64,000 nt of DNA from the human T2T-CHM13v2.0 reference genome, Homo sapiens. Of the stretch, positions 27,436 through 50,400 are shown in pieces. The notes beneath the pieces were generated by a model. The model was given only the letters and a program-made list of their open reading frames with translations, searched no databases and was not told the origin of the DNA. A program made the position numbers and the translations under genes. Positions within the stretch are counted from its first letter, which is position 1. Each line of letters begins with the position of its first letter. Location of the stretch: contig CP068257.2 of NCBI GenBank assembly GCA_009914755.4, positions 8,064,001 to 8,128,000 of the forward strand. The letters run 5' to 3'.

Positions 27436-29595
27436 TCCTGTGATCCAAGACCCCATTCTTTCTGTAAACTTCGTGTGGTAGACAAGCTTCTGCACCCATC
27501 TTGTGTGTGGGTCTTCATTCTAAGGGCTCCAGTGTACACACATTGCCGAAACCTGTATGCCTTTTCTACTATTTATCTGCCTCCTATTAGTGATTTTCAG
27601 GGAAACTTCAGAAGGCAAAAGGGACATTCTCCTTTAGCCTATACTCAGACAAAATCCCCCAACATTTAACTGATTCCTAATAGCTTAAAATCACTTTGAA
27701 AAATCCATATATTTATAACCTTTTCTTCCCTCTATGATTTCTGGTCAGCTTGGGTTTTGTTTTTTATACCATTTACTTCATCCTCGAAAAGATCTATTTT
27801 ATGTCTATTTATTCTCATTTATTGACATTGAGAAAAGAAAATAACTTTCATGTGAGAAAAGCAAGTCCTTTGAAATAATCAGGCCCAGAGAGTTATTCAA
27901 ATGAGACAGCAGTTCTGTCCTGCTCCTCTTTGAGCTGTGTGTTCATCTAGGCTGCTTGCTGTTGCCACAGTAGCTATAAATTAATCAATAATGCCACACC
28001 AGACACTACAATCCACACCCAATAATAGTGTAACAGTGTATAGCCAGTCACTAATAAATGTGATTTCCATAAGCCAATGATAATTTGTGACAAACCTCTT
28101 TGCATCATCCCACTTCTTATCCCTTTTTTGCCTTTAAGAAACTGCTTGTTGCAAAGCTCCAAATGGAGTTCATATCCAAGGATACTTGGGTCTGTTTCTT
28201 CCAGGCAGCTGTCCTCATTTTGGCTCAAGTAAACTCTTTGAATTACGTTTCGTGCTTCAGCCCCTTCCACTTAGATTAACAACATGGATTTGTGTCACCA
28301 TGTACAGCAATTAAAATGTTTACGCTTTTCCCCTCGAGGGCACTGATGTGTTTTCCTGAGCACTTGGAATAGCTACATAGTGTTTACTTTCTATATTACG
28401 GTTTCTCAACCTTGGTGTACTTACCTTTAGGACCAGAGGATTCTTTGCTGTGGGAGGCTGCCCTAGCAATGCTAGGTGTTTCGTTTGACCTCTAAATTTC
28501 ACACCTCCACCAGTCTTGACATCCCCACAATAACCCTAGTCATTGACAAATGTCTCCTGGGGAAAACTCTCCACCGGTTGACAGCTCAAAGTTCTTGAAA
28601 TATTGGAATTGTCAATTGAGTTTTTATGTTATCCAAAACAAATATTTTTCTTTGTTTTTAAACATCTACTTCCATCTGCTTATCTACTTATTTTTACTTT
28701 TATTTGTAACTTAATTCCATCAAGGAGAGAGAGTGCATTTTCTGTTATGGTAAATTTTTGAAGAATGCATTGATTTTTTATGACCTGATATATGGATGAT
28801 ATGTAGATATTACATGTTTGTATTATCAAATTTCAGGGTGATAATAAAATAAATACTTATTTATATTGTCACTTTATATTAGTTATTTTCTTTCTTCACT
28901 ACAGGAGTTTTTCAACCTGTAGGCTATTTTTCAATTCTAGGTTATCCAGTAGATTTTGAAATGTTAAGATTAAATATCTACTTCTCAAGCATTCATCTTT
29001 GCAAATGAATCAATCCCAAGCTCTTATAATGCACATCATATAAAGGGCAGATTAGTCAATATATGGTTCAGAATTAGTTATGTAACATCTATAAGAAAAC
29101 TAGAAATTTAGATCCTTAACTCAGATAACAATAATCCAAATTAAAATTTGATTTCATTACATAATTTAAAATGACACCAGAATACTAGTAAAAATGTAGA
29201 TAAGTTTATATAATCCTTTTTAGCTGTAGGACTTTATTATCATAAATTCAAATACAGGAGCCAAAGTAAGATTGAGACCTATAGTCAAGGGTTAAAGTGT
29301 ACACATTATAGGGGCATGATTAATCTAATTTAAAGCATAACATGGAGAAATATTGCAAAACATACATGTTACTGTATTAATTGTTAATATGTAATCATTA
29401 AGTGAGAACAAAGGTAAAGAGTAGCTACACACACACACACACAAAGTGCAATATTGTCAAATATATGTGATGTTCAGCTACACTAGAAATCACACCTGTG
29501 TTTTCTCCACAGAAGTTTAAAGATTAAAAATCACAATAATATTTATTGTACATATGCAGATAAAGATACTCAAAATATTACCCTAAAATACTTTT

Positions 29596-29876
<281 letters not shown>

Positions 29877-29884
29877 GCTTTTTG

Positions 29885-30200
29885 ACGTATTTCAAGATGG
29901 CTACTCGGAAGACTGGAAATAGCTTCTTCTACAAGAATAGCTGAAAAGTTGTGTTTGTTGGGGAGATTTGCATTTGTAGAGAAAATCTGCATTGATATAG
30001 ACAGGCTTTCCCTGAGATACTCCCTTGTCTGTGTTTACGAAAGATTAACTGAGTCTGGCACGTTTACATTTCTAAAAACCATTTCTTATCTACACTTCCC
30101 AAGAGGAGGGCTGCTCTCTGTGAGGTTTCATCCATGTAACAAGACTTCCTCTGCTGCCAGGCTCCTCTGTCTTCCTTGTCGTCACTTGTCTTCCGCAAAG
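29885..30200 (+). mobile_element. Unidentified interspersed repeat, copy 2 (paralog of 27,150-27,435), immediately downstream of the Alu at 29,596-29,876
   Basis: TCAAGATGGCTACTCGGAAGACTGGAAATAGC…GGGGAGATTTGCATTTGTAGAGAAAATCTGCATTGATATAGACAGGCTTTCCCTGAGATACTCCCTTGTCTG…GATTAACTGAGTCTGGCACG…TGCTCTCTGTGAGGTTTCATCCATGTAACAAG is collinear with copy 1. Confidence 0.4.
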
Positions 30201-30279
30201 ACTGATTGACCAACCTACAGGTCTGTGTTTTCTGTAACCTCAAGACAGCATAGGCGTGTTGACTACCTTGCCATTCCTG

Positions 30280-30400
30280 GAGTTTTTATATATATAGTAT
30301 ATATTTGTATATCTATTTATAATATACAAATATTTGTATATATATTTATAATATACAAATATTTGTATATATATTTATATATATATTATGTAAACTCCAA
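30280..30400. repeat. AT-rich tandem duplication, about a 31 bp unit ATATTTGTATATATATTTATAATATACAA repeated about 3 times
   Basis: Seen in sequence. tttgtatatctatttataatatacaaatatttgtatatatatttataatatacaaatatttgtatatatatttatatatatatt. Confidence 0.8.
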
Positions 30401-31840
30401 GTGCATACTTGTGCACGTATCTGTAAACCTTTTTTTCCTGTTGATTTGAACATTATCTGTTTGTTTTATAGACTGAAATAATTAAAGCTTCAAGGGAAAA
30501 ATTTAAACTTTCCTATAGAGAAAAGACAAATATGTAGGTGACAAATAATATTTAGAGTGTAAGACGCTTTTTAAAGGTATATTTGTAATTTGTGTCAAAA
30601 CATTTAAATATACATTTGTTGCTTTAACTATAAAATTTCAAATAATTTAAGCTAAATATATAGTATATGCAGAAAATTTAGCAATATTTGTATGTAGCAC
30701 CTTACTGTGCATTACTGTAACCAGCTGTCTAATATAAAGAACTAATTAAGGTAACACCTACTTTTCAAATATCTCATTTTTTTCACAGACCTATTAAATA
30801 AGACAAATAACATATAAACTTTGTTTTTAAATTTACAGAATAGTAGTTTTCAGAAGATGATTTATTTTAGCAAATTCCATCTTCACATTGTGCTATGCTT
30901 TTATGAGTTCCACCTGTTAAAGAATAATATTTTACTGCTGAATCTATCATGTGTGATATAATTGCTCATTATGTGCCTTAAAACACAAGCAATATAGTTA
31001 TTTTCATCTTGCAGCAAATTAAAATCTTATCAGCCATTTAAAAACTCTAGAGTTGTCTTCTGGTTAATTATTTTAAACGTATTTTTCTCTCTATGTTTTT
31101 AATGAGTTGTCTTATCAAGGAGAAGAACTCAAGCTGATTATTCTTTTTTTTCTCTTCCATCCACCTCGCAGGTGCGTTAATAATTTCATTTCCCAGAAAA
31201 TGTTCTTTCATATCCATCTTACAAGATGAGAGAGCTTTTAAAATCTTCCATTCGGATGTGATAGGAGTAATGGAAAATATTCCAGCTTCATGAATATGGT
31301 GATACAAATAGTTATCCGTCTAACCTCTTTCAGTGCCAAATGTATACTTTAGTCAGCGAATTACTCAGTTGACAGGTAATTTCTTCTGAAATCACTAATG
31401 AGAGGATCAGAGGTCTGGCTCTTGTCTGTACCGCATGTGACTCCCAGTGCAGACAATTGTTTCTATGGAGCACAGACAGTTGAAAGGATTGACTTCCTGC
31501 CTAGAATAGTTTCTGCTGTGCTTCTTATCCTTCTTGTGGAGATTTCAGATTATCTGAATTGCTTTTCTATCTTAAGAAAAAACTCAACAATTCTCCCACC
31601 TGAGAGGAATGTAAACTGTAGTAAGTTAGCAGAACCAATCCGTAAAGTTTTACATTGTTTTTTTGTAAAATGCAGCTTTGGTGTCTCCATCACTAACCTT
31701 TTCTATCCCTCATTGCTCTTTCTTTGACTGCAATAGGATACCTCTAGGCAAATCTGTATTCCCGAGACAGAGTGCCGTTTTGGTTAGCTATAAGTACACT
31801 CAATGGTAGGCGGAAATACTAGTTTTTATCTACGGCGAAA

Positions 31841-34800
31841 TTCCATTCCACTACACTCCACTCCACTCCACTCCACTCCACGCTATTCAGTTCCATTCCA
31901 CTCCATTCCATTCCACTTCATTCCACTCCACTGCACTCCACTTCACCGCATTCCATTCCATTCCACTTCACTCCATTCCACTCCACTCCACTCCATTCCA
32001 CTCCAATACACTCCATTCCACTCCATTCCATTCCATTCCGTTCCATTCCATTCCATTCCACTCCACTCAATTCCATTCCACTCCATTCCACTCCACTCCA
32101 ATCCACTCCACTCCACTCCACTCCATTGCATTCCATTCCATTCTAAATCCATTCCATTACATTCCATAATAAATCCGCTCCATTCCCTTCCTTTCTTTCG
32201 ACAGGATTTCACTCTGTCACTCAGGCTGGAGTGCAGTGCACAATCTCAGTTCACATTTCTTTTCACCATTCCATTCCATGCCATTGTATTCCATTCTATT
32301 CCACTCCACTCCGTACAATTCCATTCCTCCCCATTACATTCCACTCCACTACCTTCCACTCCACTCCTCTCCACTCCATTCAATTCCATTCTACCCCATT
32401 CCATTCCACTTCATTCCACTCCATTCCACTCCACTTCACCGCATTCCAATCGATTCCATTCGATACCATTCCATTCCATTCCATTCCATTCCATTCCATT
32501 TGATTCCACTTGATTTCATTTACATTCCATTTCACTCCATTCCATTCCACTCCATTCCACTCCACTTCATTCCACTCCACTCCATTCCACTCCATTCCAC
32601 TGCACTCCAATCCACTCCACTCAACTTCAATCAACTCCACTCCATTCCATTCCACTCCATTCTACACCTTTCCACTATACTCCATTCCATTCCATCCCAT
32701 TCCTTTCCACTCCATTCCACTCCACTCCACTACACCCCACTCCACTCCACTGCACTCCATTCCATTCCATTCCATAAGAATCCATACCACACCATTCCAC
32801 TCCACTCCACTCCACTCCATGATAATCCACTCTACTCCACTCCATTCCATTCCATTCCATTCCATTCCATTTTAAATCCATTCAATTCCATTCCATTCCA
32901 TTTTAAATCCATTCAATTCCATTCCTTTCTTTTGACAGGATCTCACTAGGTCACCCAGGCTGGAGTGCAGTGCACAATCTCAGCTCACATTTCATTTCAC
33001 CATTCCATTCCATTCCATTCCATTCCATTCCATTCCATTCCATTGCATTCCATTCCGCTTCACTCCACTCCACTCTGTTCCATTCCATTCCTTCCCTTTC
33101 CATTCCACTCCACTCCGTTCCATTCCATTCCTTCCCTTTCCATTCCACTCCACTCCATTCCACTCCACTCCATTGAATTCGATTCCACCCCATTCCATTC
33201 CACTCCATTCCACTCCACTCCACACCATTTCACCGCATTCCATTCCATTCCACTCCATTCCATTCCATTCCATTTGATTCCTTTCGATTCCATTCCAATT
33301 CATTCCATTCCATTCCACTCCACTCCACTCCACTCCACTCCATTTAATTCCATTCCACTCCATTCCATTCCACACCATTCCACTCCACTCCACAACATTT
33401 CACCGCATTCCGTTCCATTCCACTCCTTTCCATTCCATTCCATTTGATTCCTTTCGATTCCATTCCAATTCATTCCATTCCATTCCACTCCACTCCACTC
33501 CATTGAACTGCACTCCATTCCACTCCACCCATTCCATTCCATTCCACTCCATTCCACTCCACTCCAGTCCATTCCACTCTATTACACTCCACTCAATTCC
33601 ACTCCATTCCACTGCACTCAATTACATTCCACTCCACCCCATACCATTCCACTCCAGTCCATTCCACTCCACTCCAGTCCATTCCAATCCACTCCATTTC
33701 ATTCCACTCCACTCCATTCCACTCCACTCCACTCCTCTCCACTCCACTCCACTCCATTCCATTCCATCCCACTCCATTCCAGTCCTCTCCATTCCACTGC
33801 ACTCCACTCCACTCCACGCCACTCCACTCCACTCCATTCCATTCTAAATCCATTCCTTTCCATTCCTTTCTTTTGACAGGGTCTCAGTCTATCACCCAGG
33901 CTGCACTGAGGTGCACAATCTCAGTTCATATTTCATTTCCCCATTCCATTCCATTCCATTCCATTCCATTCCATTCCATTCCATTCCATTCTATTCCAAT
34001 GCATTCCATTCCATTCCATTGCATTCCATTCCACTCCACTCCACCCCACTCCAGTCAATTCCATTCCTTCCCATTCCATTCGATTTGATTCCATTCCACT
34101 CCACTCCACTCCATTGAATTCCATTCCACCCCATTCCATTCCACTCCATTCCACTGCACTCCAATCCACTCCACTCAACTTCAATCCACTCCACTCAACT
34201 CCAGTCCACTGCACTCCATTCCATTCCACTCCATTCTACACCTTTCCACTCCACTCCATTCCATCCCATCCCATTCCATTCCACTCCATTCCACTCCACT
34301 CCACTACACCCCACTCCACTCCACTGCACTCCATTCCATTCCATTCCATAAGAATCCATACCACACCATTCCACTCCACTCCACTCCACTCCACTCCATG
34401 ATAATCCACTCTACTCCACTCCATTCCATTCCATTCCATTTTAAATCCATTCAATTCCATTCCTTTCTTTTGACAGGATCTCACTAGGTCACCCAGGCTG
34501 CAGTGCAGTGCACAATCTCAGCTCACATTTCATTTCACCATTCCATTCCATTCCATTCCATTGCATTCCATTCCACTCCACCCCACCCCACTCCAGTCAA
34601 TTCCATTCCTTCCCATTCCATTCGATTTGATTCCATTCCACTACACTCCACTCCATTGAATTCCATTCCACCCCATTCCATTCCACTCCATTCCACTGTA
34701 CTCCAATCCACTCCACTCAACTTCAATCCACTCCACTCAACTCCAGTCCACTGCACTCCATTCCATTCCACTCCATTCTACACCTTTCCACTCCACTCCA

Positions 34801-37800
34801 TTCCATTCCATCCCATTCCATTCCACTCCATTCCACTCCACTCCACTACACCCCACTCCACTCCACTGCACTCCATTCCATTCCATTCCATAAGAATCCA
34901 TACCACACCATTCTATTCCACTCCACTCCACTCCACTCCATGATAATCCACTCTAATCCACTCCACTCCATTCCAGTCCATTCCATTTTAAATCCATTCA
35001 ATTCCATTCCTTTCTTTTGACAGGATCTCACTAGGTCACCCAGGCTGCAGTGCAGTGCACAATCTCAGCTCACATTTCATTTCACCATTCCATTCCATTC
35101 CATTCCATTCCATTCCATTCCATTCCATTCCATTCCGCTTCACTCCACTCCACTCCACTCCGTTCCATTCCACTCCACTCCACTCCGTTCCATTCCATTC
35201 CTTCCCTTTCCATTCCACTCCACTCCATTCCACTCCACTCCATTGAATTCGATTCCACCCCATTCCATTCCACTTCATTCCACTCCACTCCACACCATTT
35301 CACCACATTCCATTCCATTCCATTTGATTCCTTTTGATTCCATTCCAATTCATTCCATTCCATTCCACTCCACTCCACTCCACTCAATTCCATTCCACCC
35401 CATTCCATTGCACACCATTCCACTCCACTCCACATTTCACCGCATTCCGTTCCATTCCACTCCATTCCATTCCATTCCATTTGATTCCTTTCGATTCCAT
35501 TCCAATTCATTCCATTCCATTCCACTCCACTCCACTCCATTGAACTGCACTCCATTCCACTCCACTCCACCCCATTCCATTCCATTCCACTCCATTCCAC
35601 TCCACTTCAGTCCATTCCACTCCATTCCACTCCACTCAATTCCACTCCATTCCACTGCACTCAATTACATTCCACTCCACCCCATACCATTCCATTCCAG
35701 TCCATTCCATTCCATTCCACTCCAGTCCATTCCACTCCACTCCAGTCCATTCCAATCCACTCCATTTCATTCCACTCCACTCCATTCCATTCCACTCCAC
35801 TTCACTCCACTCCACTCCATTCCACTCCACTCCACTCCAGTGTTCTCCATTCCACTGCAGTCCACTCCATTCCACTCTGTTCCATTCCACTGCACTCAAC
35901 TCCCCTCCACTCCACTCCAATCCACTATATTCCATTCTATTCCATTCTACACCTTTCCACTCCATTCCACTCCACTCAAAACCATTCCATCCCATTCCAT
36001 TCCTCTCCATTCCACTCCAATCCACTCCACTCCACTCCACTCCACTCTATTCCATTCCATTCCATAACAATCCATACCACTCAATTCCACTCCACTCCAC
36101 TCCACTCCACGCCACTGCACTCCACTCCACTCAATTCCATTCCATTCCATTGTAAATCCATTCCATTCCACTCCTTTCTTTTGATGGGATCTCACTCTGT
36201 CACCCAGGCTGGAGTTCAGTGCACAATCTTAGCTAACATTTCATGTCACCATTCCATTCCATTCCATTCCATTCCTTTCGATTCCATTCCATTTCATTCC
36301 ATTCCATTCCATTCCACTCCACTCCACCCCACTACACTCCATTCCACTCTATTCCTCTACACTCCATTCCACTACACTCCACTCAACTCCACTCCACTCC
36401 AGTCAACTCCATTCCATTCCATTCCATTCTATAAATTTCCACTCCTCTCCACTCCATTCCATTCCATCCCATTCCATTCCACTCCATTCCAGTCCACTCC
36501 ATTCCACCCCACTCCAATACACTCCACTCCATTACATTCCGTTCCATAACAATCCATACCACTCCATTCCACTGCACTCCACTCCACTCCACGCCACTTC
36601 ATTCCACTCCATTCCATTACATTCCATTCTAAATCCATTCCATTCCAATCCTTTCTTTCAACAGGATCTCACTCTATCAACCAGGCTGCACTGCACTGCA
36701 CAATCTAAGCTCACATTTCATTTCACCATTCCATTCCATTCCATTGCATTCTATTCCATTCCAATGCATTCCATTCCATTCCACTCCACTCCACTACACT
36801 CCATTCAATTCCATGCCTTCCGATTCCATTCCATTCAATTCCATTCCACTCCACTCCACTCCATTGAATTCCATTCCACCCCATTCCATTCCACTCCATT
36901 CCACTTCAGCACATTCCATTCGATTCCATTCAATGCCATTTGTTTCCATTCGATTCAATTCCATACAATTCCATTCGATTCCATTTTTTCCTTTTGATTC
37001 CGTTTGATTCCATTCGATTCCATTCGATTCGATTCCATTCGGTTCGATTTGATTTGATTCGATTCCATTCGATTCCATACGATTCCATTCCGTTCCATTC
37101 CGCTCCACTCCATTCCACTCCACTCCATTGCACTCCACTCCATTCCACCTCATACCATTCCACTTCATTCCATTCCATTCCATTTCATTCCATTGCATTC
37201 TAAATCCATTCCATTCCATTCCTTTCTTTTGACAGGATCTCACTCTCTCACCCAAGCTGGAGTGCAGTGCACAATCTCAGCTCACATTTCAATTCACCAT
37301 TCCATGCCATTCTATTCCATTTCATTCCATTCCATTCCATTCCACTCCATTGCATTCCATTCCTTTCCACTCCACTCCACTTCACTCCATTCCACTCCAC
37401 TCCATTCCCTTTCATTCCAATCCACTCCACTCCATTCCACTCCATTTCACTAAACTCCACTCCACTCCATTCCACTCCACTCCACTCCATTCCATTCCAT
37501 TCTACACCTTTCCACTTCACTCCACTCCACTCCACTCCATTCCATTCCACTCCACTCCACTCCATTCCACTCCACTCCACCCCACAGCACTCCACTTCAC
37601 TCCATTGCATTCCATTCCATAACAATCCATACCATTCTGCTCCACTCCACTCCACTCCCAGCCACTTCACTCCACTTCATTCCATTACATTCCATTGTAA
37701 ATCTATTCCATTCCATTCCTTTTTTTATGAAAGGATCTCACTCTGTCACCCAGGTTGGAGTGCAGTGCACAGTCTCAGCTCACATATCATTTCACTATTC

Positions 37801-40800
37801 CAGACCATTCCATTCCATTGCATTCCATTCCACACCACTCCACTCCACTCCATTCAATTCCATTCCTTCCCAGTGCATTCCACTCCAATCCATTCCACTC
37901 CACTTCACTCCACTCCATTAAATTTCATTCCACCCCATTCCATTCCACTCCACTCCAGTTCACCACATTCCATTCAATTCCATTCGATGCCATTCCATTC
38001 CATTCCATTCCATTCCATTCCATTCCAATCCATTCCACTTCACTCCATTCCACTCCATTCCACTCCACTCCACTCCATTCCATTCCCTTCCATTCCATTC
38101 CATTCCACTCCATTCCATTCCATTCCATTCCACTCAATTCCATTCCACTGCACTCCACTCCATTCCACTCAATTCCATTCCACTGCACTCCACTCCATTC
38201 CACTCCACTCTGCTCGACTCCATTCCATGCCATTCCACCCCCCTCCATTTCACTTCTTTTCACTCCATTCCTTTCCATTCCATTCCATTCCATACCACTC
38301 CACTCCATGCCATTCCACCCCCCTCCATGTCACTTCTTTTCACTCCATTCCTTTACATTCCATTCCATTCCATTCCACTCCACTCCATTCCACTCCACTC
38401 CATTCCACTCCACTCCACTCCACTCCGTTCCATTACGTTCCATTCTAAATCCATTCCATTATATTGCATTCTAAATCCATTCCATTCCCTTCCTTTCTTT
38501 CGACAGGATCTCACTCTTTCTCCCAGGCTAGAGTGCAGTGCGCAATCTCAGCTCACATTTCATTGCACCATTCAGTTCTATTCCATTCCATTGCATTTCA
38601 TTCCACTCCACTCTGTTCAATCCCATTCCTTCCCATTCCATTCCACTCCACTCCACTCCACGCTAATCCACTCCACTCCACTCCATTACATTCTATTTTA
38701 AATCCATTCAATTCCATTCCTTTCTTTGGACAGGATCGCACTACATCACCCGGGCTGCATTGCACTGCAGAATCTCAGCTCACATTTCATTTCACCATTC
38801 CATTCCATTCCATTCCATTGCATTCCATTCCACTCCACTCCCCTGCACTCCGTTCAAATCCATTCCTTCCCATTCCATTTGATTCCATTCCACTCCACTC
38901 CAGTCCATTGAATTCCATTCCACCCCATTCCATTCCACTCCATTCCACTCCACTCCATTCCAGTTCTCCGTATTCCATTCGATTCCATTTGATTCGATTC
39001 CATTCAATTCCATTCGATTCCATTTTTTCCATTCAATTCCGTTCGATTCCATTTGATTCCATTTTCTATTCCATTCGATTCGATTCTATTCCATTCGATT
39101 CCATTCCACTCCATTCCACTCCACTCCACTCCACTCTATTCAACTCCACTCCATTCCACCCCATTCCATTCCACCGCATTCCATTCCATTCCATTTCAAT
39201 CCATTCCATTCTAAATCCATTCCAATCCATTATTTTCTTTTGACAGGATCTCACTCTCTCACCCAGGCTGGAGGGCAGTGCACAATCTCAGCTCACATTT
39301 CGTTTCACCATTCCATGCCATTCCACTCCATTGCATTCGATTCCATTCCATTCCACTCCATTGCATTCCATTCCATTCCACTCCACTCCACTCCACTCCA
39401 TTCCACTCCACTCCATTCCAGTCCAGTCCACTCCATTCCATTCCACTCCACTCCATTTCATTCGAACCCACTCCACTCCTTTCCACTCCATTCCAGTAAA
39501 CTCCACTCCACTCCACTCCATTCCACTCCATGCCATTCCACTCCATTCCATTCCACTCTACTCAATTCCACTCCACTCCACTCCACTCCATTCCATTCCA
39601 TTCTACACCTTTCCACTCTACTCCACTCAACTCCACTCCATTCCATTACATCGCATTCCATGCCACTCCATTCAACTCCACTCCACTCAACCCCACAGCA
39701 CTCCACTCCACTCCATTGAATTCCATTCCATAACAATCCATACCATTCCATTCCACTCCACTCCAATCCACTCCAAGCCACTCTATTCCACTCCATTCCA
39801 TTACATTCCATTGTAAATCCATTCCATTCCTTTCCGTTCTTATGACAGGATCTCACTCTGTCACCCAAGTTGGAGTACAGTGCACAGTCTCAGCTGACAT
39901 ATCATTTCACCATTCCAGTCCATTCCATTCCATTGCATTCCATTCCACACCACTCCACTCCACTCCGTTCAATTCCATTCCTTCCCAGTCCATTCCACTC
40001 CACTCCATTCCATTCCACTTCACTCCACTCCATTAAATTACGTTCCACCCCATTCCATTCCACTCCATTCCACTCCACTCCACTTCACCACATTCCATTC
40101 AATTCCATTCGATGACTTTCAATTCCATTCTATTCGATTCCATTCCATTCCATTTGATTCCATTCCATTTGATTCCAATCCATTCCATTCCATTACACTC
40201 AATTCCACTCTATTCCAATCCACTCTACTCCACTCCATTCCACTCTATTCCAATCCAATCTACTCCACTCCACTCCATTCCATTCCCTTCCATTGTATGG
40301 CATTCCACTCCATTCCATTCCATTCCACTCAATGTCGTTCTATTCCACTCCACTCCATTTAACTCCACTCCGCTCGACTGCATTCCATGCCATTCCACCC
40401 CACTCCATTTCACTTCTCTTCACTCCATTCCATTCCATTCCACTCCATTTCACTCCACTCCATTCCGCTCCACTCCAATCTACTCCGTTTCATTACATTC
40501 CATTCTAAATCCATTCCATTATATTCCATTCTAAATCCATTTCATTCCCTTCATTTCTTTCGACAGGATCTCACACCGTCACCCAGGCTGGAATGCAGTG
40601 CGCAATCTCGGCTCACATTTCATTTCAGCATTCCATTTGATTCCATTCCATTGCATTTCATTCTACTCCACTCCACTCCACTCAGTTCAATTCCATTCCT
40701 TCCCATTCCTTTCCACTCCACTCCATTCTACTCCACTCCACTCCATTCATTTCTATTCCACCCCTTTTCATTCCACTCCATTCAAATCCACTCCACTGCA

Positions 40801-43800
40801 TTTCACCGCATTCCATTTGATTCTGTTCCATTCATTTCCATTCCATTGCCTTCAACTCCATTCAATTCCTTTCGATTCCATTCCATTTGATTCCATTTGA
40901 TTCGATTCGATTCGATTTCATTCCATTCCATTGCCTTCCATTACATTCCATTCCACTTCACTCCCTTCCGTTTCATTCTATTCCATTCCACTACACCCCA
41001 CTATACTCCAATACACTCCACTCCATTCCACTGCACTGCAATCCACTCCGCTAAACTCCACTCCACTCCTCTCCATTGCATTCTATTCTACACCTTTCCA
41101 CTCCACTCCACTCCACTTCACCGCATTCCAATCGATTCCATTCGATGCCATTCGATTCCATTCCATTCCATTTCATTCCATTCCATTCCATTTGATTCGA
41201 TTCGATTCCATTCCATTCCATTGCACTCCACTCCACTCCACTCCATTCCACTCCAATCCATTCAACTCCATTCCACTGCCCTTCAATCCACTCCACTCAT
41301 ATCCAATCCACTCCACTCCACTCCCTTCCAATCCATTCTACACCATTCCACTCCACTCCACTCCACTCCACTCCATTACATTTCATCTCATTCCATTCCA
41401 CTCCATTCCACTCCACTACACCCCACTCCGGTCCACTGAATTCCATTTGATTCCATAAGAATCCATACAACTCCATTCCACTCCAGTCCACTCCACGCTA
41501 TTCCACTCTACTCCACTCAATTCTATTACCTTCCATTTAAAATCCATTCCATTCCATTCCTTTCTTTTGACAGGATCTCACTAGGTCACCCAGGCTGGAT
41601 TGCAGTGCATAATCTCAGCTCACATTTGATTTCTCCATTCCATTCCATTGTATTCCATTCCACTTCACTCCACTCCACTCCACTCCATTCAATTCCATTC
41701 CTTCCCATCCCATTCTACTCCTCGCCATTCCACTCCACTCCACTCCATTGAATTCCATTCCACCCCATTCCATTCCAGTCCATTCCACTCCACTCCACAA
41801 TATTTCACCACATTCCATTCCATTCCATTCCATTCCATTCCATTCCAATTTCTTTCGATTCCATTCCATTTCATTCCGTTCCATTCCATTCCACTCCACT
41901 TCACTCCACTCCATTACACTGCACTCCATTCCACTCCACTCCACTCCATTCCATTCCATTCCACTCCATTCCACTCCAGTCAGGTCCATTCTACTCCATT
42001 CCACTCCACTGCATTCCACTCCACTCCAATGCACTCCATTCCATTCCACTCCACTCCATACCATTCCACCCCAGTCCATTCCATTCCACTCCAGTCCATT
42101 CCACTCCACTGCAGTCCATTCCACTCCATTCCATTCCATTCCACTCCACTCCATTCCATTCCACTCCACTTCACTCCACTCCACTTCACTCCACTCTGCT
42201 CCATTCCACTCCACTCAACTCCATTCCACTCCATTCCATTCCACTGCACTCAACTCCCCTCCAATCCACTCCACTCCACTATACTTCATTACATTCCATT
42301 CTACACCTTTCCACTCCACTCCACTCCCTTCCATTCCTTTCCATCTCATTCCATTCCACTCCATTACACTCCACTCCACTTCACCCCACTCCACTCCATT
42401 CCATTCCATTCTATAAGAATCCATACCACTCCATTCCACTCCACTCCACTCCACACGACTCCACTCCACTCCAGTCCATTCCATTACATTCCATTTTATA
42501 TCTGTTCCATTCCATTCGTTTCTTTTGACAGGATCTCACTAGGTCACCCAAGCTGGAGTGCAGTGCACAATCTCAGCTCACAATTCATTTCACCACTCCA
42601 TTCCATTGCATTCCACTCCACTCCACTAAACTCCACTCTGTTCAATTCCATTCCTTCCCATTCCATTCCACTCGACTCCATGCCACTCCACTGCACTCCA
42701 TTCCATTTAATTCCATTCCACCCCATTCCATTCCACTCCATTCCACTCCTCTCCACAACATTTCATCGCATTCCATTCCATTCCATTCCACCACACTACA
42801 CTCCATTGCACTGCACTCCATGCCACTCCACTCCAATCCATTCCATTCCATTCCACTCCAATCCACTCCACTCCAGTCCATTCCACTCCACTCCATTCTA
42901 CTCCAGTCCACTCTACTGCACTCCAGTCCATTCCACTCCACCCCATACCATTCCACTCCACTCCATTCCATTCCACACCAGTCCATTCCACTCCACTCCA
43001 TTGCTTTCCACTCCACTCCATTCCATTCCACTCCACTCCATTCACTCCACTCCACTCCACTCTGCTCCATTCCACTCCACTCCACTCCACTCCTCTCCAT
43101 TCCACTCCACTGCATTCCACTCCATTCCATAACACTGCACTCAACTCCCCTCCCCTTCACTCCACTATATTCCATTCCTTTCCATTCTACACCTTTCCAC
43201 TCCACTCTACTCCTCTCCATTCCATTCCATCCCAATCCATTCCACTCCATTCCCCTCCACACCACTCCACTCCACCCAACTATACTCCACTCAACTCCAT
43301 TCCATTCCATTCCATAACAGTACATACCACTAAATTCCACTCCACTCTACTCTATGCCACTGCACTCCACTTCATTCCATTCCATCCCATTCCATTCCAC
43401 TCCATTCCACTCCACTCCACCCCACTTCACTCCACTCCACTCCATTCCATTCCATTCCATAAAAATCTATACAACTCAATTCCACTCCACTCCACTCCAT
43501 TCCACGCCACTCCACTCCACTCCACTCAATTACATTACATTCCATTGTAAATCCATTCCATTCCATTCCTTTCTTTTGAAGGAATCTCACTCTGTCACCT
43601 AGGCTGGAGTGCAGTGCACAATCTCAGCTCACATTTCATTTCACCATTCTATTCCATTCCATTCCATTGCATTCCATTCCATTCCTTTCGATTCCATTCC
43701 ACTCCACCCCACTCCACTCCATTCCACTACACTCCATTCCACTCCATTCCATTCCATTCCACTCAACTCCACTCCACTCCACTCGACTCAATTCCATTCC

Positions 43801-46800
43801 ATTGCATTCCATTCTACACATTTCCTCTCCACTCCACTCCGTTCCATTCCATTCCATTCCATCCCACTGCATTCCAGTCCTCTCCATTCCACCCCCCACC
43901 ACTCCACTCCACTCCATTCCATTCCATAACAATCCATACCTCTCCATTCCACTGCACTCCACTCCACGCCACTCCACTCCACTCCATTCTATTCTAAATC
44001 CATTCCTTTCCATTCCTTTCTTTTGACAGGGTCTCACTCTATCACCCAGGCTGCACTGAGGTGCACAATCTCAGTTCATATTTCATTTCCCCATTCCATT
44101 CCATTCCATTCCATTCCATTCCATTCCATTCCATTCCAATGCATTCCATTCCATTCCATTGCATTCCATTCGACTCCACTCCACTCCACTCCAGTCAATT
44201 CCATTCCTTCCCATTCCATTCGGTTTGATTCCATTCCACTCCACTCCACTCCATTGAATTCCATTCCACCCCATTCCATTCCACTCCATTCCACTGCACT
44301 CCATTCCTCTTCACCGCATTCCATTCGATTCCATTGATGCCATTTGATTCCATTTGATTCGATTCCATTCGAATCCATTTTTTCATTCGATTCCATTCGA
44401 TTCCATTCGACTCGATTCCATTCAATTCGATTTGATTCCATTCGATTCCATTCCATTACATTCCACTCCACTCCACTCCATTCCATTCCATTCCATTCCG
44501 TTTTTCTAAATCCATTCCATTCCATTCCATTCCATTCCATTCCATTCCATTCCATTTTTCTAAATCCATTCCATTCCATTCCATTCCATTCCATTCTTTC
44601 TAAATCCATTCCATTGCATTCCTTTCTTTTCACAGGATCTCACTCTCTTACCCAGGCTGGAGTGTAGTGCACAATCTCAGCTCACATTTCATTTCACCAT
44701 TCTATGCCATTCCATTCCATTGCATTCTATTCCATTCCATTCCAATCCTTTGCATTCCATTCCATTCCACTCCACTCTACTCCATTCCACTTCACTCCAT
44801 TCCATTCCAGTCCACTCCATTCCTCACCACTCCACTCCACAACACTCCACTCCCTTTCATTCCAATCCACTCCACTCCATTCCACTAAACTAAACTGTAC
44901 TCCACACCACTCCACTCCATTCCAATCCACTCCACTCCATTCCACTCAATTCCACTCCATTCCACTCCATTCCATTCCATTCTACACATTTCCACTCCAT
45001 TCCACTCCACTCCTCTCCATTCCATTCCATCCCATTCCATTCCACTTCATTCCACTCCACTACACCCCACAGCACTCCATTCCACCCCATTGAATTCCAT
45101 TCCATAACAATCCATACCATTCCATTCCACTCCACTCCATTCCATTCCACTCCACTCCACTGCACTCCATTCCGTTACATTCCTTTCTATATCCATTCCA
45201 TTATATTCCACTCTAAATCCGTTCCATTATATTCCATTCTAAATCCATTCCATTCCCTTCCTTTCTTTCAACAGGATCTCACTCTGTCACCCAGTATGGA
45301 GTGCAGTGTAGATTCTCAGCTCACATTTCATTTCACCATTCCATTCCATTGTATTCCATTCCACTTCACTCCACTCCACTCCGATCAATTCCATTCCTTC
45401 CCATTCCATTCCATTCCATGCCACTCCACTCCACTCCATTGAAGTCCATTCCACCCCTTTGCTTTCCACTGCATTCCACTACCCTCCACTCCACTTCATC
45501 ACATTCCATTCGATTTCATTCTACACCATTCGAATCTTTCAATTTCATTCCATTCGATTCCATTAGATTCCATTTTTTCCATTCGATACCATTCGATTCC
45601 ATTCGACTCCATTCCATTGCATTCGATTCAATTTGATTCGAGTTGTTTCGATTCAATTAGATTCCATTTGATTCCATTTGTTTCCATTCCATTACATTCC
45701 ATTACATTCCACTCCATTCCATTACTTTCTGCTCCATTCCATTCCACTCCACTCAAATCCTTTCCACTCCACTCCATTCCATTCCATTCGACTCCACTCC
45801 ATTTCACTCCATTATATTTCATTCCATTCCATTCCACTCCACTCCACTCGATTCCATTCCACTCCATTCCACTCCAATCCACTCCACTCCACTCCATTCC
45901 ATTACATTCCATTCTAAATCCATTCCATTCCATTCCATTCTGAATCCATTCCATTCTCTTCCTTTCTTTCTACAGGATCTCACTGTGTAACCCAGGCTGG
46001 AGTGCAGTGCATAATCTCAGCTCACATTTCATTTCACCATTCCATTCGATTCCATTCCATTGCATTCCATTCCACTCCACTCCACTCCACTCCGCTCCAC
46101 TCTGTTCAATTCCATTCCTTCCCATTCCATTCCATTCCAATCCATTCCACTCCTCTCCACTCCATTCAATTCCATTCCACCCCATTCCATTCCACTCCAT
46201 TCCAAGAAACTCCACTCCATTTCACCGCATTCCATTAGATTCCATTCAATGCCACTCGATTCCATTTGATTCAATTCCATTCGATTCCTTTCAATTTCAT
46301 TTTTTTGCATTCGATTCAATTCAATTTCTTTTGATTCAATTCAAATCCTTTCGATTCCATATGATTCGATTTGATTTGAGTCGATTTGATTCAAAACCAT
46401 TTGATTCCATTCTTTTCCATTCTATTCCATTCGATTCCATTTGACTCCATTCCATTCGATTCTGTTCCATTCCATTCCACTCCATTCCATTCCATTCCAT
46501 TTGATTAAATTCCATTCCATTCCATTCCATTCAATTCCATTCCACTCCACTCAATCCTACTCCACTCTAATCATTCCCATTCCTTCCCATTCCATTCCAC
46601 TCCCCTCACTTCCACTCCAGTCTACTCCACTCCGTTCAATTCCATTCCCCTCCATTACATTCCAATCCATTCTGCTCCACTCCTCTCCGTTTCACCACAT
46701 TACATTTGATTCACTTCAATGCCATTCGATTCCATTTGATTCGAATCCATTCGATTCCATTGAATTCCGATCTATTCCATTTGATTTGATTCGATTCATT

Positions 46801-47480
46801 TGGAGTCGATTCAATTCGAGTCGAGTCGATTTGATTCGATTCCATTCCATTCTACTCCATTCCATTCCATTCCATTCCACTCCATTCTTTTCCACTCCAC
46901 TCCATTCCATTCCACTCCACTACATTCCATTCCTCTCCATTCCACTGCTTTCCACTCCATTACATTCCACCCCATTCCATTCCACTCCACTCCACTCCGT
47001 TTCACTCCACTCCATTCCATTCAACTCCATTCCACTGCTTTCCACTCCATTACACTCCACTACATTCCATTCCATTCCACTTCACTCAATTCCACTCCAT
47101 TCCATTCCACACAATTCCACTTCACTCTACTCCACTCCAATCCACTGCACTCCACTTCATTCCATTCAATTCCATTTTAAATCCAATCCAATAATTTCCA
47201 TTCTAAGTCCATTCCATTCCCTTCCTTTCTTTCGACAGGATCTCACTCTGTCACCCAGGCTGGAGTGTAGTGCACAATCTCAAATAACATTTTATTTCAC
47301 CATTCCATTGCATTCCATTCTATTGCATTCCATTCCACTCCACTCCACTCCGTTCAATTCCACTCCTTCCCATTCCATTCCACTCCAGTACATTCCACTC
47401 CACTCCATTCAATTCCATTCCACCCCAGACCGTTCCACTGCACTCCACGCCACTCCTTTCCAGTTCACTGTATACCATTT
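31841..47480 (+). repeat. HSat3-type (CATTC)n pentameric satellite, domain A. It is a CpG-poor CACTC-rich variant organised in higher-order blocks, each bounded by a conserved roughly 60 bp Alu 3'-end fragment (22 copies). The C-rich strand is on +.
   Basis: Seen in sequence. ATTCCATTCC repeats are continuous and mixed with CCACTCCACTCC variants. The motif …CATTCTAAATCCATTCCATTCCTTTCTTTTGACAGGATCTCACTCTGTCACCCAGGCTGGAGTGCAGTGCACAATCTCAGCTCACATTTCATTTCACCATTCC… recurs at about 32,200; 32,930; 33,870; 34,470; 35,012; 36,175; 36,655; 37,225; 37,725; 38,497; 38,725; 39,235; 39,838; 40,555; 41,563; 42,523; 43,570; 44,020; 44,625; 45,265; 45,965; 47,225. All ORFs there are HSIPF/MEWNG periodic artefacts. 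Confidence 0.93.
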
Positions 47481-50400
47481 GATTAAATTTGATGTCATTT
47501 GGTTCCATTCCATTTAACTCTATTCCATTCCACACGATTCCATTTGATTCCAGTCCATTCATTTCCCTTCCCTTGCATTCCATTCCATTCCAATCCATTC
47601 CATTCCATTCTATTCCATTCCATTTCAATCCATTAAATTCCATTCCCTTCCATTCCTTTCCATTACATTCCATTCCTCTCCATTCCATTTCATTCTTTTA
47701 CATTCCATTCGGGTTTATTCCATTCCATTCCATTCGAATCCATTCCATTGCACTCGCGTTGATTCAATTCCATTGCTTTCCATTCGAGTCCATTCCATTT
47801 CATTCGAGTCCATTCCATTCCATTCAAGGCCACTTCATTCCATTCCATTCCTTTCCATTCCATTCTTTTCGGGTCCATTCAATTCAAATGCATTCCATTC
47901 CATTCCATTCCATTCCATTCCATTCCATTCCATTCCATTCCTTTCCAAAATTCGAGTCCATTCCAATCCATTCCATTACACTCGAGTCATTTCCATTCCA
48001 TTTGCGTCCATTCAATTCCATTCCATTCCTTTCCATTCCATTCATTTCCATTCCATTCCATTTCATTACAGTCCATTCCATTCCATTCCATTCGTGTCCA
48101 TTCCATTCCATTGCATTCCATTCCATTCGATTCCATTCCTTTCCATTCAATTCCAATCGTGTCCATTCTATTCCAATCCACTTCAGTTCATTCCATTCCA
48201 TTCCATTCCATTTGAGTCCATTCCATTCCATTCGAGTCCATTCCATTCCATTTCATTCGAGTCCCTTCCATTCCATTCCATTCCATTCTATTCCTGTTGA
48301 GTGCATTCCATTGCATTGCCTTCCATTCGAGTGCATTCCGTTCCATTCGACTCCATTCCATTCCATTCCAATACATTCCATTCCATTCTATTCCATTCCA
48401 TTTCAATCCATCCCATTCCATTCCATTCCATTCCATTCCATTCCATTCCTTTCCATTCCATTCCATTCTGTTCCATTCCATTCCATTGCATTCCATTCCT
48501 TTCCATTCCATTCCATTCTGTTCCATTCCATTCTGGTCAATTCCTTTCCATTCCATTCCATTCCATTCCTCTCCATTCCATTCTGTTCCATTCCATTCGG
48601 GTCCATTCCATTCCGTTCCATTCCATTGCACTCAAGTTGATTCCAATCCATTCCATTCCATTAGAGTCCATTCCATTTCATTTGAGTCCATTCCTCTCCA
48701 TTCCATTCCATTCGAGGCCACTTCATTCCATTCCATTCCATTCCATTCTTTTCGGGTCCATTCAATTCAATTGTTTTCTATTCCATTCCATTCCATTCCA
48801 TTTCATTCCATTCCATTCGAGTCCATTTCATTCCATTCCTCTCCATTCCATTCCATTCTGTTCCATTCCACTCGGGTCCATTCCATTCCATTCCATTCGA
48901 ATCCATTCCATTACATTCCATTCCATTCCACTCGAGTTGATTCCATTCCATTCCATTCGAGTTCATTCAATTTCATTTGAGTCCATTCCATTCCATTCCA
49001 TTCGAGGCCACTTTATTCCATTCCATTCCATTCCATTCCATTCCATTCCATTCCATTCCATTCCATAATTTGAGTCCATTCAATTCCATTCCATTACACT
49101 CGAGGCTTTTCCATTCCATTCAAGTCCATTCAATTCGATTCTATTCCTTTCTATTTCATTCAATTCCATTCCATTCGACTGCATTCCATTTGGTTCCATT
49201 CAATTAGAGTCCATTCCATTCGTGTCCATTCCATTCCATTCCATTCAATTGCAATCCATTTGTTTCCATTTTGTTCCAGTCCTTTCCATTCGAGTCCATT
49301 CCATTCCAGTCCATTCCATTTGATTTCATTCCATTCAAATCCATTCCATTGGATTCGATTCCACTCGATTCCAGTCCGTTCCATTTTCTTACATTCCATT
49401 CTATTCCATTCCATTGCATTCCATTCCATTCCATTTGATTACATTCCATTTGATTCCATTCTACTCAAATCAATTACATTGCAATCCATTACATTTGAGT
49501 CCTTTCTATTCCAGTCCATTCCATTCCTGTCCATTCCATTCGATTCCATTCCATTCGACTCCATTCCATACTGTTGCATTCCTTTCGATTCCATTCTGTT
49601 CGAATAAATTGCATTCGAGAACATTCCTTTCGAGTCCATTCTATTTGAGTCCATTACATTCAAGTCCATTACATTTGAGTCCATTCCATTCCATTCCATT
49701 CGATGCCATGCCATTCGATTCTCTTCCATTCAAATACAATCGATTAGAGTCCATTCCATTCCATTCCACTCCATTCATTGCCAATCCATTCAATTCTATT
49801 GAATTCGAATCCATTCCATTCCATTGTGTTCCATCCGATTCCATTCCATTCTTCCTTTCCATTCCATTCCATTTCATTCGTTTCCATTCAATTTGTCTGC
49901 ATTCCACTCCAGTCCATACCGTTCGAGTCTATTCCATTCCAGTCCATTCCATTCGAGTCCATTCCACTCGATATCATTCCATTATGCTACATTCCATTCT
50001 CTTCTTTTCGATTCCATTCAATTCCATTCCATTCGATTCCATTCCATTCAATTCCATTGCTTTCGACTCCATTCCATTCGAGTGCATTCCATTCCATTCC
50101 ATTACATTCTGTTCTTTTCGATTCCAATCCGTTCCATTCCATTTTGTTCCTGTCCATTCCCTTCGAGTCCATTCCATTTCAGTCCATTCCACTCGATTCC
50201 ACTCCATTCCATTCTATTACATTGCATTCTATTCCATTCCATTGCATTCCATTCCATTCCATTTGATTACATTCCATTTGATTCCATTACATTTAATTCA
50301 ATTACATTGCAATCCATTTCATTCCAGTCCATTCCATTCCTGTCCATTCCATTCAATTCCATTACATACTATTGCATTCCATTTGATTAAATTCTATTCA

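What the first reader, a model, noticed from the sequence alone, without database searches (positions are those of the whole stretch)
31841..47480. HSat3 array in which a single truncated Alu 3' end has become part of the repeat unit (22 co-oriented copies)
The same roughly 55-60 bp fragment appears 22 times across 15.6 kb. It is the reverse complement of the Alu 3' end: TTTTGACAGGATCTCACTCTGTCACCCAGGCTGGAGTGCAGTGCACAATCTCAGCTCAC, which corresponds to TTTTGAGACGGAGTCTCGCTCTGTCGCCCAGGCTGGAGTGCAGTGGCGCGATCTCGGCTCAC. Every copy is on the same strand. Every copy has the same right junction (…CTCAGCTCAC|ATTTCATTTCACCATTCC) and the same left flank (…CATTCTAAATCCATTCCATTCCTTTCTTTTGACAGG). Independent Alu insertions would not share junctions. 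This must be a single ancient 5'-truncated Alu insertion into the (GAATG)n strand. On the minus strand its A-tail runs straight into GGAATGG. The insertion was then amplified together with the satellite as part of a higher-order repeat. Spacing between copies ranges from 230 to 1,260 bp (modal about 500-1,000 bp). That variation fits unequal exchange inside the pentamer tracts. Copy-specific variants are shared between distant positions. For example, the GGGTCTCAGTCTATCACCCAGGCTGCACTGAGGTGCACAATCTCAGTTCATATTTCATTTCCCC variant at 33,872 recurs at 44,022, followed by about 280 bp of near-identical flank. This suggests multi-kb higher-order duplication. I cannot say from memory whether this architecture is already described for a particular HSat3 subfamily or chromosome. 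It offers a convenient unique-ish anchor inside an otherwise intractable pentamer array.
Basis: partly seen in the sequence, partly recalled or inferred. Interest (0 to 1): 0.7.

Follow-up and report, generated by a model that had tools for sequence, protein, structure and literature searches.

The report
Alu fragment inside HSat3 satellite units
A 15.6-kb stretch of human satellite 3 DNA carries 22 copies of one short Alu tail fragment that was inserted once and then copied along with the satellite. This is real, but the T2T human genome project has already catalogued it, so it is ordinary.

Summary
There are 22 co-oriented copies of a roughly 65-bp block at 32,190-47,288, spaced 227-1,263 bp apart. 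The block is the reverse complement of an Alu 3' end plus a short T-rich tail. All copies share both junctions and about 45 bp of non-canonical flank on each side. Homology to a full-length Alu in the same window always stops at the same base (…GCTCAC). The same holds for 709 further copies in 120 metagenome contigs, presumably host DNA. One truncated Alu fragment therefore became part of the repeating unit and was amplified passively.

The host array carries the diagnostic 24-mer of subfamily HSat3A4 (acrocentric, pTRS-47 type). The copies are old, with about 15% pairwise divergence. Organisation is an irregular patchwork of local duplications. It is not a regular or multi-kb higher-order repeat.

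The element is already known. [quoted passage not shown] Altemose et al. state that HSat3 often includes ancient TE fragments in its repeat units. The Alu block is no more conserved than its flanks.

The parts
1..31840 (.). Non-satellite flank. It contains dispersed full-length Alus, simple repeats and a GC-rich 22-bp tandem repeat. It is context only, not part of the composite.
31841..47480 (+). HSat3 array of the A4 type. The C-rich strand reads (ATTCC/ACTCC)n on +, and the array carries the 22 Alu-derived blocks.
   Evidence: TRF period 5. Six exact matches to the HSat3A4-specific 24-mer and none to the other 13 subfamily 24-mers. GC about 0.45 and GC skew about -0.8.
32190..32254 (-). Alu-derived block c01: Alu 3' end plus short A-rich tail, with the Alu sense strand on the minus strand. 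Retains the CpG at the tail junction (TTTCGACAGG).
32924..32988 (-). Alu-derived block c02, closest to the array consensus. It is 1.4% from c04 and c05.
33865..33929 (-). Alu-derived block c03, the GGGTCTCAGTCTATC…GCACTGAGGTG variant. It is 1.4% from c18.
34462..34526 (-). Alu-derived block c04.
35009..35073 (-). Alu-derived block c05. It is a 547-bp tandem duplicate of c04; the duplicated stretch 34,013-34,413 versus 34,555-34,955 is 98.5% identical.
36173..36237 (-). Alu-derived block c06.
36650..36714 (-). Alu-derived block c07.
37221..37285 (-). Alu-derived block c08. It starts a roughly 1.27-kb two-unit segment (37,231-38,502) that is duplicated at 39,237-40,562.
37718..37782 (-). Alu-derived block c09. 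Its nearest relative is c13.
38492..38556 (-). Alu-derived block c10. Its nearest relative is c14. Retains CpGs.
38719..38783 (-). Alu-derived block c11, only 227 bp after c10.
39227..39291 (-). Alu-derived block c12.
39834..39898 (-). Alu-derived block c13.
40552..40616 (-). Alu-derived block c14.
41559..41623 (-). Alu-derived block c15.
42517..42581 (-). Alu-derived block c16.
43568..43632 (-). Alu-derived block c17.
44015..44079 (-). Alu-derived block c18, the near-identical twin of c03 at offset 10,150 bp.
44621..44685 (-). Alu-derived block c19.
45260..45324 (-). Alu-derived block c20.
45961..46025 (-). Alu-derived block c21.
47224..47288 (-). Alu-derived block c22, the last copy, about 190 bp before the subfamily switch.
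47481..64000 (+). Adjoining HSat3 of a different flavour, rich in CATTCGAGTCC-type decamers with GC about 0.38. It has no Alu blocks. It is not part of the composite but defines its distal boundary.
   Evidence: none of the 14 published subfamily 24-mers is present

Best explanation
This is a passive, selfish-DNA composite. An Alu was captured once in an ancestral (GGAAT)n satellite 3 array, antisense to the ATTCC strand shown here. Only its last 55 bp or so, plus a short A-rich tail, survive. The fragment lacks the left monomer, and with it the Pol III promoter boxes that established Alu biology places there, so it could not spread by retrotransposition. Instead it was carried along when the surrounding satellite was amplified by unequal exchange and local segmental duplication. 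It thereby became the landmark of an irregular repeat unit: a fixed block of about 145 bp plus a variable run of ATTCC/ACTCC pentamers. Pentamer gain and loss changes the spacing. Later local duplications of 0.5-1.3 kb and point mutation, including CpG decay, produced the present patchwork.

The array belongs to HSat3 subfamily A4. In T2T-CHM13 that subfamily lies on the acrocentric short arms and in paralogous pericentromeric modules on chromosomes 1, 3 and 4.

What is shown directly: the shared junctions, shared orientation, the single Alu breakpoint, the subfamily marker, the divergence, the duplication map and the identity with the T2T model.

What is inferred: the order of events, whether truncation happened at insertion or afterwards, the amplification mechanism, and the chromosomal location.
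For: Counts and shared structure:
- 22 copies against 0 expected by chance, all on the + strand.
- Both junctions and about 45 bp of non-canonical flank on each side are shared.

Alu origin and single breakpoint:
- The block aligns to four full-length Alus in the same window, and homology stops at …GCTCAC.
- The breakpoint is identical in the window (16 of 19 HSPs) and in 120 metagenome contigs (520 of 664 HSPs; none more than 1 base further).

Independent sample:
- They hold 709 copies, and orientation is never mixed within a contig.
- 60% of spacings are 2 mod 5, meaning a fixed block plus n pentamers.
- A 1-bp deletion (GTGGCAC to GTGCAC) occurs in every window copy that retains the motif. 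It clusters by contig elsewhere: 16 contigs have only the deletion, 78 have only the G form and 6 have both. This is the pattern expected from local amplification.

Subfamily and prior annotation:
- Six exact hits to the HSat3A4 24-mer of PMC4022460 Table 1.
- Hoyt et al. list entries with TSD 'ggaatggaatgg' and tail 'AAAAGAAAGGAA'. Those whose coordinates I could check (chr3, 4, 14, 21, 22) fall inside arrays labelled hsat3(A4) or (A4,A2) in the CHM13 cenSat table.

No sign of constraint:
- Divergence is 15.6% in the Alu part versus 14.7% for the whole core.
Against: - No target-site duplication can be recognised, because both flanks are pentamer repeats. The tail is GAAAGAAAGG rather than clean poly(A). 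Retrotranspositional origin of the truncated copy therefore cannot be separated from insertion of a full Alu followed by deletion.
- The window's spacings are less cleanly quantised (8 of 21 are 2 mod 5) than those in the metagenome sample.
- Subfamily assignment rests on the single published 24-mer per subfamily.
- Chromosome and species were not determined with these tools.
Confidence: 0.9

Rival explanations
1. The 22 fragments are independent Alu insertions. The satellite would be a preferred target, and repeated 5' truncation would explain the short length.
For: (GGAAT)n contains AA/TT-rich sites that resemble L1 endonuclease targets; this is general knowledge and was not tested here. RepeatMasker labels for Alu pieces in CHM13 HSat3 are scattered over many subfamilies, for example Alu 973, AluJb 361, AluY 204 and FRAM 169.
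Against: Every copy has the same orientation, the same truncation point and the same left and right flanks out to about 45 bp. Diagnostic changes are shared, including all CpGs decayed in the same direction and a 1-bp deletion. The scatter of subfamily labels is what a diverged 55-bp fragment would give.
Confidence: 0.01
2. The pattern arose by Alu-mediated 3' transduction. An Alu source element inside HSat3 would have repeatedly retrotransposed together with downstream satellite sequence. The level-3 TSDfinder calls of Hoyt et al. suggest this reading.
For: The supplementary transduction table lists such events with TSD 'ggaatggaatgg' and tail 'AAAAGAAAGGAA' linking chr3, 4, 13, 14, 21 and 22.
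Against: The fragment holds only about 55 bp of the right monomer. It has no left monomer and therefore no Pol III promoter. The 5' junction (upstream in Alu sense) is shared as well as the 3' side. Copies are tandem and co-oriented inside arrays, with spacing quantised in pentamers. The apparent TSDs are simply the satellite repeat. The loci whose coordinates I could check against the cenSat table (chr3, 4, 14, 21, 22) belong to a recurring bsat-hsat3(A4)-ct-CER-hsat5 module, which is the signature of segmental duplication.
Confidence: 0.03
3. The block is not Alu-derived. It would be a 7SL RNA pseudogene fragment or a chance similarity.
For: The 3' ends of 7SL and Alu are related. Rfam gives no hit inside the array even at E<=1.
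Against: The block is about 81-87% identical over 49-63 bp to a full-length Alu of the same window, and local alignments to all four in-window Alus stop at the same base. The GTGAGCTGAGAT… start of the block is Alu-type rather than 7SL-type; this rests on my memory of the 7SL sequence. The T2T curators classified the model as Alu. The Rfam silence is expected for a 55-bp piece of a 299-nt model.
Confidence: 0.02
4. The Alu block is kept by selection as a functional module of the array, for example a protein-binding or boundary element, rather than being a passive passenger.
For: The block is retained in thousands of units on several chromosomes: 2,618 Alu embeds in CHM13 HSat3, and the family consensus is well defined.
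Against: The Alu part is no more conserved than the flanks, at 15.6% versus 14.7% pairwise divergence. All but one of its CpGs have decayed. Retention is explained by amplification alone. The neighbouring HSat3 subfamily lacks the block entirely.
Confidence: 0.04

Closest known systems
[quoted passage not shown]
   Same: It is the same element. The 67-bp consensus TGAAAT|GTGAGCTGAGATTGTGCCACTGC…GATCCTGTC|GAAAG includes both junctions. It matches the window consensus at 64 of 67 positions and a 300-copy metagenome consensus at 66 of 67.
   Different: The window copies all carry a 1-bp deletion (GTGGCAC to GTGCAC), and most have TG instead of CG at the tail junction. The T2T tables only list the model and do not describe how it is organised.
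HSat3 subfamily A4 (Altemose 2014), equivalent to the pTRS-47 satellite III family (Choo 1990; 1,366-bp clone on chr14/22)
   Same: The array is built from GGAAT/GGAGT pentamers and carries the subfamily-specific 24-mer six times. CHM13 arrays labelled A4 hold Alu pieces with the same tail.
   Different: No regular 1.37-kb period is seen here. There is only one two-unit duplication of about 1.3 kb, at 78% identity. The clone sequence itself could not be obtained for comparison.
HSat1B / DYZ2, the 2.47-kb Y-chromosomal satellite with one Alu member per repeat (Frommer 1984)
   Same: A TE copy was captured once and then amplified as an integral part of a satellite repeat unit.
   Different: DYZ2 has a regular 2.47-kb unit with a large Alu portion in an AT-rich satellite on the Y chromosome. 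Here a 55-bp fragment sits in an irregular pentamer array.
Other TE-satellite composites of T2T-CHM13: LSAU-BSAT, 5SRNA_Comp (with AluY) and AluSx3-WaluSat
   Same: In each, a TE piece is fixed at one position of an amplified unit, and the composite spread between acrocentric and pericentromeric regions by segmental duplication.
   Different: Those are homogeneous arrays, or a true Alu 3' transduction followed by expansion (WaluSat). This one is old, about 15% diverged, and shows no evidence of transduction.

Membership tests
Human satellite 3 (HSat3) | An array built from diverged (ATTCC/GGAAT)n pentamers | tested here: met
   TRF reports period 5 and 6,380 copies over 31,840-63,968. 86% of the A4 part and 95% of the distal part lie within 2 mismatches per 10-mer of (ATTCC)n.
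HSat3 subfamily A4 (Altemose 2014) | Presence of subfamily-specific 24-mers; the published top 24-mer is AATTCCATTCCTTCCCATTCCATT | tested here: met
   There are 6 exact matches at 34,057, 34,599, 42,644, 44,197, 45,387 and 46,108, and 0 for the top 24-mers of the other 13 subfamilies. Only one 24-mer per subfamily was available.
HSat3 subfamily A4 (Altemose 2014) | Location on acrocentric short arms or paralogous pericentromeric modules | not testable with these tools
   No human assembly is searchable here. The CHM13 cenSat table places A4 arrays on chr1, 3, 4, 13, 14, 21 and 22, next to 'ct' sequence.
pTRS-47 higher-order repeat | A tandem higher-order unit of 1,366 bp | tested here: inconclusive
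   No regular period was found. One duplication of about 1.3 kb (37,231-38,502 versus 39,237-40,562) is 78% identical against 67-70% for controls.
[quoted passage not shown] | Match to the 67-bp consensus, including both satellite junctions | tested here: met
   64 of 67 for the window consensus and 66 of 67 for the metagenome consensus.
[quoted passage not shown] | Embedded in HSat2/3 satellite | tested here: met
   All 22 copies lie inside the pentamer array.
Alu SINE | Sequence homology to the Alu consensus | tested here: met
   Local alignments to four full-length Alus of the same window cover the last 55-63 bp.
Alu SINE | Dimeric body of about 300 bp with Pol III A and B boxes in the left monomer | tested here: not met
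   Homology never extends beyond …GCTCAC. The copies are fragments, not Alu elements capable of transcription.
Alu SINE | Poly(A) tail and target-site duplication, the hallmarks of retrotransposition | tested here: inconclusive
   The tail is GAAAGAAAGG / AAAAGAAAGG, running into GGAATGG. A TSD cannot be distinguished from the pentamer repeat.
Alu SINE, subfamily AluJb (T2T label) | Diagnostic subfamily positions | not tested
   No Alu subfamily library was available. From memory, the 5' part of the fragment fits AluS/Y with CpG decay and the 3' part fits AluJ, so the label is uncertain.
Regular higher-order repeat (alpha-satellite-like HOR) | A constant multi-unit period with high identity (>95%) between HOR copies | tested here: not met
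   Only 5 off-diagonal segments of 150 bp or more were chained from shared exact 24-mers (ungapped identity 97.7-98.7%). Mean divergence between copies is 14.7%. Spacings range from 227 to 1,263 bp.

The most novel reading that the evidence does not exclude
The most novel reading that remains open has two parts. First, the Alu block could be more than a passenger, for example a sequence-specific landing site (a KRAB zinc-finger protein or other factor) that distinguishes HSat3A4 chromatin from neighbouring HSat3 subfamilies. Second, its array-specific variants, such as the 1-bp deletion lineage seen here, could record the history of exchange among the acrocentric and chr1/3/4 paralogous modules. 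The second part is plausible but would be a use of a known marker, not a new kind of element. The first part has no support in the divergence data.
Probability: 0.04. Interest if true: 0.55.

Novelty: already known. Interest (0 to 1): 0.12.

Why it matters
It matters little as a discovery. The element is in the T2T repeat library, and the general phenomenon of ancient TE fragments inside HSat1, HSat3 and beta-satellite units is stated in the T2T centromere paper. That paper cites Bandyopadhyay et al. 2001 for it.

There is some practical value. The block is a non-pentamer anchor of about 145 bp, counting its conserved flanks, that recurs every 0.2-1.3 kb in HSat3A4. It could help read mapping, probe design and tracing of sequence exchange among acrocentric short arms, a topic relevant to Robertsonian translocations.

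The analysis also suggests that the 'level 3 Alu 3' transductions' with GGAAT-type TSDs in the T2T supplementary table are artefacts of this composite.

Tried and rejected
- A fuzzy-regex scan of the whole window timed out. I replaced it with blastn-short.
- Low-stringency self-BLAST of the array gave only whole-array diagonals at about 70% identity at every offset, because of the pentamers, and was uninformative. I replaced it with chaining of rare 24-mers and 13-mers.
- My per-copy identity figures against the Alu-VAR model are unreliable because of the end-gap settings. I use only the consensus comparison.
- Rfam at E<=1 found only the dispersed Alus of the flank, as partial SRP, mir-1268 and mir-3135 hits, and nothing in the array. 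This does not help decide between Alu and 7SL.
- The original clone papers (Choo 1990, PMC332295; Choo 1992, PMC1682629) are not in the library. I did not try to look up Bandyopadhyay 2001 by identifier, and it did not come up in my literature searches. I therefore could not check whether pTRS-47 or the pE/pR/pK clones contain this fragment.
- A seven-unit super-HOR I hypothesised (order II-I-I-VI-III-IV-V) got only weak support from nearest-neighbour pairs at 9-14% divergence. I do not claim it.
- The distal HSat3 block (47.5-64 kb) could not be assigned to a subfamily, because only one 24-mer per subfamily is published in the main text.
- I did not try to place the flank on a chromosome, because no human assembly is available in these tools.
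Full report
**Observation.**
A 21-mer from the fragment, allowing up to 3 mismatches, hits 22 sites in the window against 0 expected from shuffles. Eighteen lie in the array and four are dispersed Alus in the flank. Spacings are 227-1,263 bp with a median of 639.

In a multiple alignment all 22 copies share three things:
- the right junction …CTCAGCTCAC|ATTTCATTTCACCATTCC;
- the left junction …CCTTTCTTT[T/C]GACAGG;
- non-canonical landmarks further out: ATTAC and TAAATCC on the left and ATTGCATTCC on the right.

The conserved unit is therefore about 145 bp, not just the Alu piece. A scan for sequence that is not pentamer-like shows that the 22 blocks are essentially the only islands of 35 bp or more in the array. 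Pentamers start at 31,840/31,841. At about 47,470 the ACTCC-rich, GC 0.45 satellite gives way to a different HSat3 flavour (CATTCGAGTCC decamers, GC 0.38) that has no Alu blocks.

**Is it Alu, and was it captured once?**
The array consensus aligns to four full-length Alus in the window's own flank. It aligns from the T-run through …GGCTGGAGTGCAGTG-GCACAATCTCAGCTCAC, and homology stops there.

I used one of those Alus as a query. The alignment ends at the same Alu base (query position 63) in 16 of 19 HSPs in the array.

A public-collection scan gave an independent sample. Those contigs total 367 kb and hold 709 copies. Orientation is never mixed within a contig. The Alu alignment ends at position 63 in 520 of 664 HSPs and never beyond position 64.

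One breakpoint, one orientation and shared flanks exclude independent insertions. The fragment lacks the whole left monomer, so it could not have been transcribed as an Alu. Together with the shared 5' junction, this argues against spread by retrotransposition or 3' transduction.

**Details of the junctions.**
At the tail junction, copies read TTTCG, TTTTG or TTTCA, both in the window and elsewhere. The 300-copy consensus reads TTTCGACAGG. The ancestral state on the Alu strand was therefore CCTGTC-G-AAAGAAAGGAATGG. As I recall the Alu consensus, its last two bases are missing. The 'A-tail' is a short GAAA-type tract, not clean poly(A). A target-site duplication cannot be recognised in a pentamer repeat. 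It therefore stays open whether the Alu was truncated at insertion or cut down afterwards.

**Organisation.**
The copies are old. Mean pairwise divergence is 14.7% over the 148-bp core (range 1.4-21.6%) and 15.6% over the Alu part alone. The Alu part shows no sign of constraint.

Chaining of shared rare 24-mers finds only five off-diagonal segments of 150 bp or more:
- a 547-bp tandem duplication, 34,013-34,413 versus 34,555-34,955, at 98.5% identity;
- 32,638-32,814 repeated at 34,212 and at 34,754 (two segments);

A gapped alignment of 2 kb around that last pair shows high identity (0.89-0.99 per 100-bp bin) only from about 33.84 to 34.14 kb. Outside that it falls to 0.5-0.85, which is the array background. 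So it is a duplication of roughly 360 bp, not a multi-kb one.

Rare-13-mer sharing between inter-Alu units shows local relationships: u01~u03~u04, u02~u05, u03~u18, and the consecutive pairs u08~u12 and u09~u13. The last two form a two-unit duplication of about 1.3 kb, at 78% identity against 67-70% for unrelated registers. This is a patchwork of local duplications, not a regular HOR.

In the metagenome sample the median spacing is 353 bp, and 60% of spacings are 2 mod 5. That is a fixed non-pentameric block plus a whole number of pentamers, as expected if spacing changes by in-register unequal exchange or slippage. The window's own spacings are less clean, with 8 of 21 being 2 mod 5.

Every window copy that retains the motif has a 1-bp deletion (GTGGCAC to GTGCAC). 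In the wider sample this variant is the minority, 35 copies against 180. It clusters by contig: 16 contigs have only the deletion, 78 have only the G form and 6 have both. This again fits local amplification. One contig (L076) is 99.6% identical to window 38,352-39,394.

**Which satellite.**
Of the 14 subfamily-specific 24-mers in Table 1 of Altemose et al. 2014 (PMC4022460), only the HSat3A4 one occurs. It occurs six times, exactly, and always inside the Alu-bearing array. That paper equates HSat3A4 with the pTRS-47 clone (1,366 bp) and assigns it to chromosomes 13, 14, 15, 21, 22 and Y.

The CHM13 cenSat table lists A4 or A4,A2 arrays in a recurring bsat-hsat3(A4)-ct-CER-hsat5 module. It appears on chr1 (128.59-128.74 Mb), chr3 (95.39-95.54 Mb), chr4 (49.53-49.65 Mb), chr13 (5.00-5.15 Mb), chr14 (1.34-1.45 Mb), chr21 (1.98-2.13 Mb) and chr22 (3.53-3.63 Mb). 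Small A4 arrays of about 23 kb also lie on chr14, 21 and 22.

The window reads unique flank, then 15.6 kb of A4, then another HSat3 type. This fits a ct|hsat3(A4,A2) boundary of that module. That placement is an inference; it could not be tested here.

**Prior knowledge.**
The supplementary tables of Hoyt et al. [quoted passage not shown] Its consensus is TGAAATGTGAGCTGAGATTGTGCCACTGCGCTCCAGCCTGGGTGACAGAGTGAGATCCTGTCGAAAG. This is the reverse complement of the present block including both junctions. It matches the window consensus at 64 of 67 positions and the metagenome consensus at 66 of 67.

The same supplement counts 2,618 Alu-annotated embeds in CHM13 HSat3, with labels scattered across subfamilies. 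That scatter is expected for a diverged 55-bp piece.

Its level-3 'Alu 3' transduction' table contains entries with TSD 'ggaatggaatgg' and tail 'AAAAGAAAGGAA'. Those on chr3, 4, 14, 21 and 22 have coordinates inside hsat3(A4) arrays. I read these as artefacts of this composite rather than true transductions.

Altemose et al. [quoted passage not shown] 2001. Neither T2T paper describes the organisation of this particular composite in its main text.

**Verdict.**
Three points are corrected. There is no multi-kb or regular HOR. The tail is not clean poly(A). The architecture belongs to HSat3A4 and is already catalogued.

The mechanism is passive hitch-hiking of a dead TE fragment during satellite amplification. 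Nothing indicates function. Novelty: already known. Interest: low.

Noticed in passing
window 47,470-64,000: A second HSat3 flavour directly abuts the A4 array. It is rich in CATTCGAGTCC / CATTCGGGTCC decamers, has GC about 0.38, is 95% pentamer-like and has no Alu blocks. None of the 14 published subfamily 24-mers occurs in it. From the CHM13 labels '(A4,A2)' it may be A2, but this was not tested.
   Followed up: partly
window 9,771-10,356: A GC-rich tandem repeat of about 28 units of roughly 22 bp, consensus GGGGGCAAAAAGCCGCGGCGGC, which also scores at periods 38 and 82. It lies in a GC 0.49 stretch of the flank. I did not establish what it is.
   Followed up: no
window 6,067-7,166: A 1.1-kb degenerate (TCATT/ATTTC)n-like simple repeat with strong strand asymmetry (GC skew -0.43). 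It may be a decayed pentamer satellite relative.
   Followed up: no
window 19,995-20,675: A polypyrimidine microsatellite block of the (CTTT)n/(CTTCC)n type.
   Followed up: no
window 1,652-1,930; 3,107-3,390; 8,068-8,184; 8,889-9,022; 16,838-16,985; 21,168-21,315; 22,558-22,844; 29,600-29,874: Dispersed Alu elements in the flank, on both strands. They were detected as sub-threshold Metazoa_SRP, mir-1268 and mir-3135 hits in Rfam. Four of them served as in-window references for the Alu alignment.
   Followed up: partly
window 46,362-46,396: The only other sizeable non-pentamer island in the A4 array: TGATTCGATTTGATTTGAGTCGATTTGATTCAAAA. It is a single copy in the window.
   Followed up: no
One contig is 99.6% identical to the window. 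This is evidently host satellite DNA assembled into 'metagenome' contigs. In that sample the median spacing is 353 bp and 60% of spacings are 2 mod 5.
   Followed up: yes
literature: Hoyt et al. supplementary sheet LEVEL3.ALU.transd.chm13: Entries with TSD 'ggaatggaatgg' and poly(A) 'AAAAGAAAGGAA' linking chr3, 4, 13, 14, 21 and 22. Those on chr3, 4, 14, 21 and 22 fall inside hsat3(A4) arrays of the CHM13 cenSat table. They look like false transduction calls caused by this Alu-satellite composite.
   Followed up: partly
window array, all copies that retain the motif (e.g. 32,970-32,985): These copies carry a 1-bp deletion (GCAGTGGCACAATCT to GCAGTGCACAATCT) relative to the family consensus and the T2T model. 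In the metagenome sample the variant is the minority (35 versus 180 copies) and clusters by contig, so it marks a sub-lineage of arrays.
   Followed up: yes
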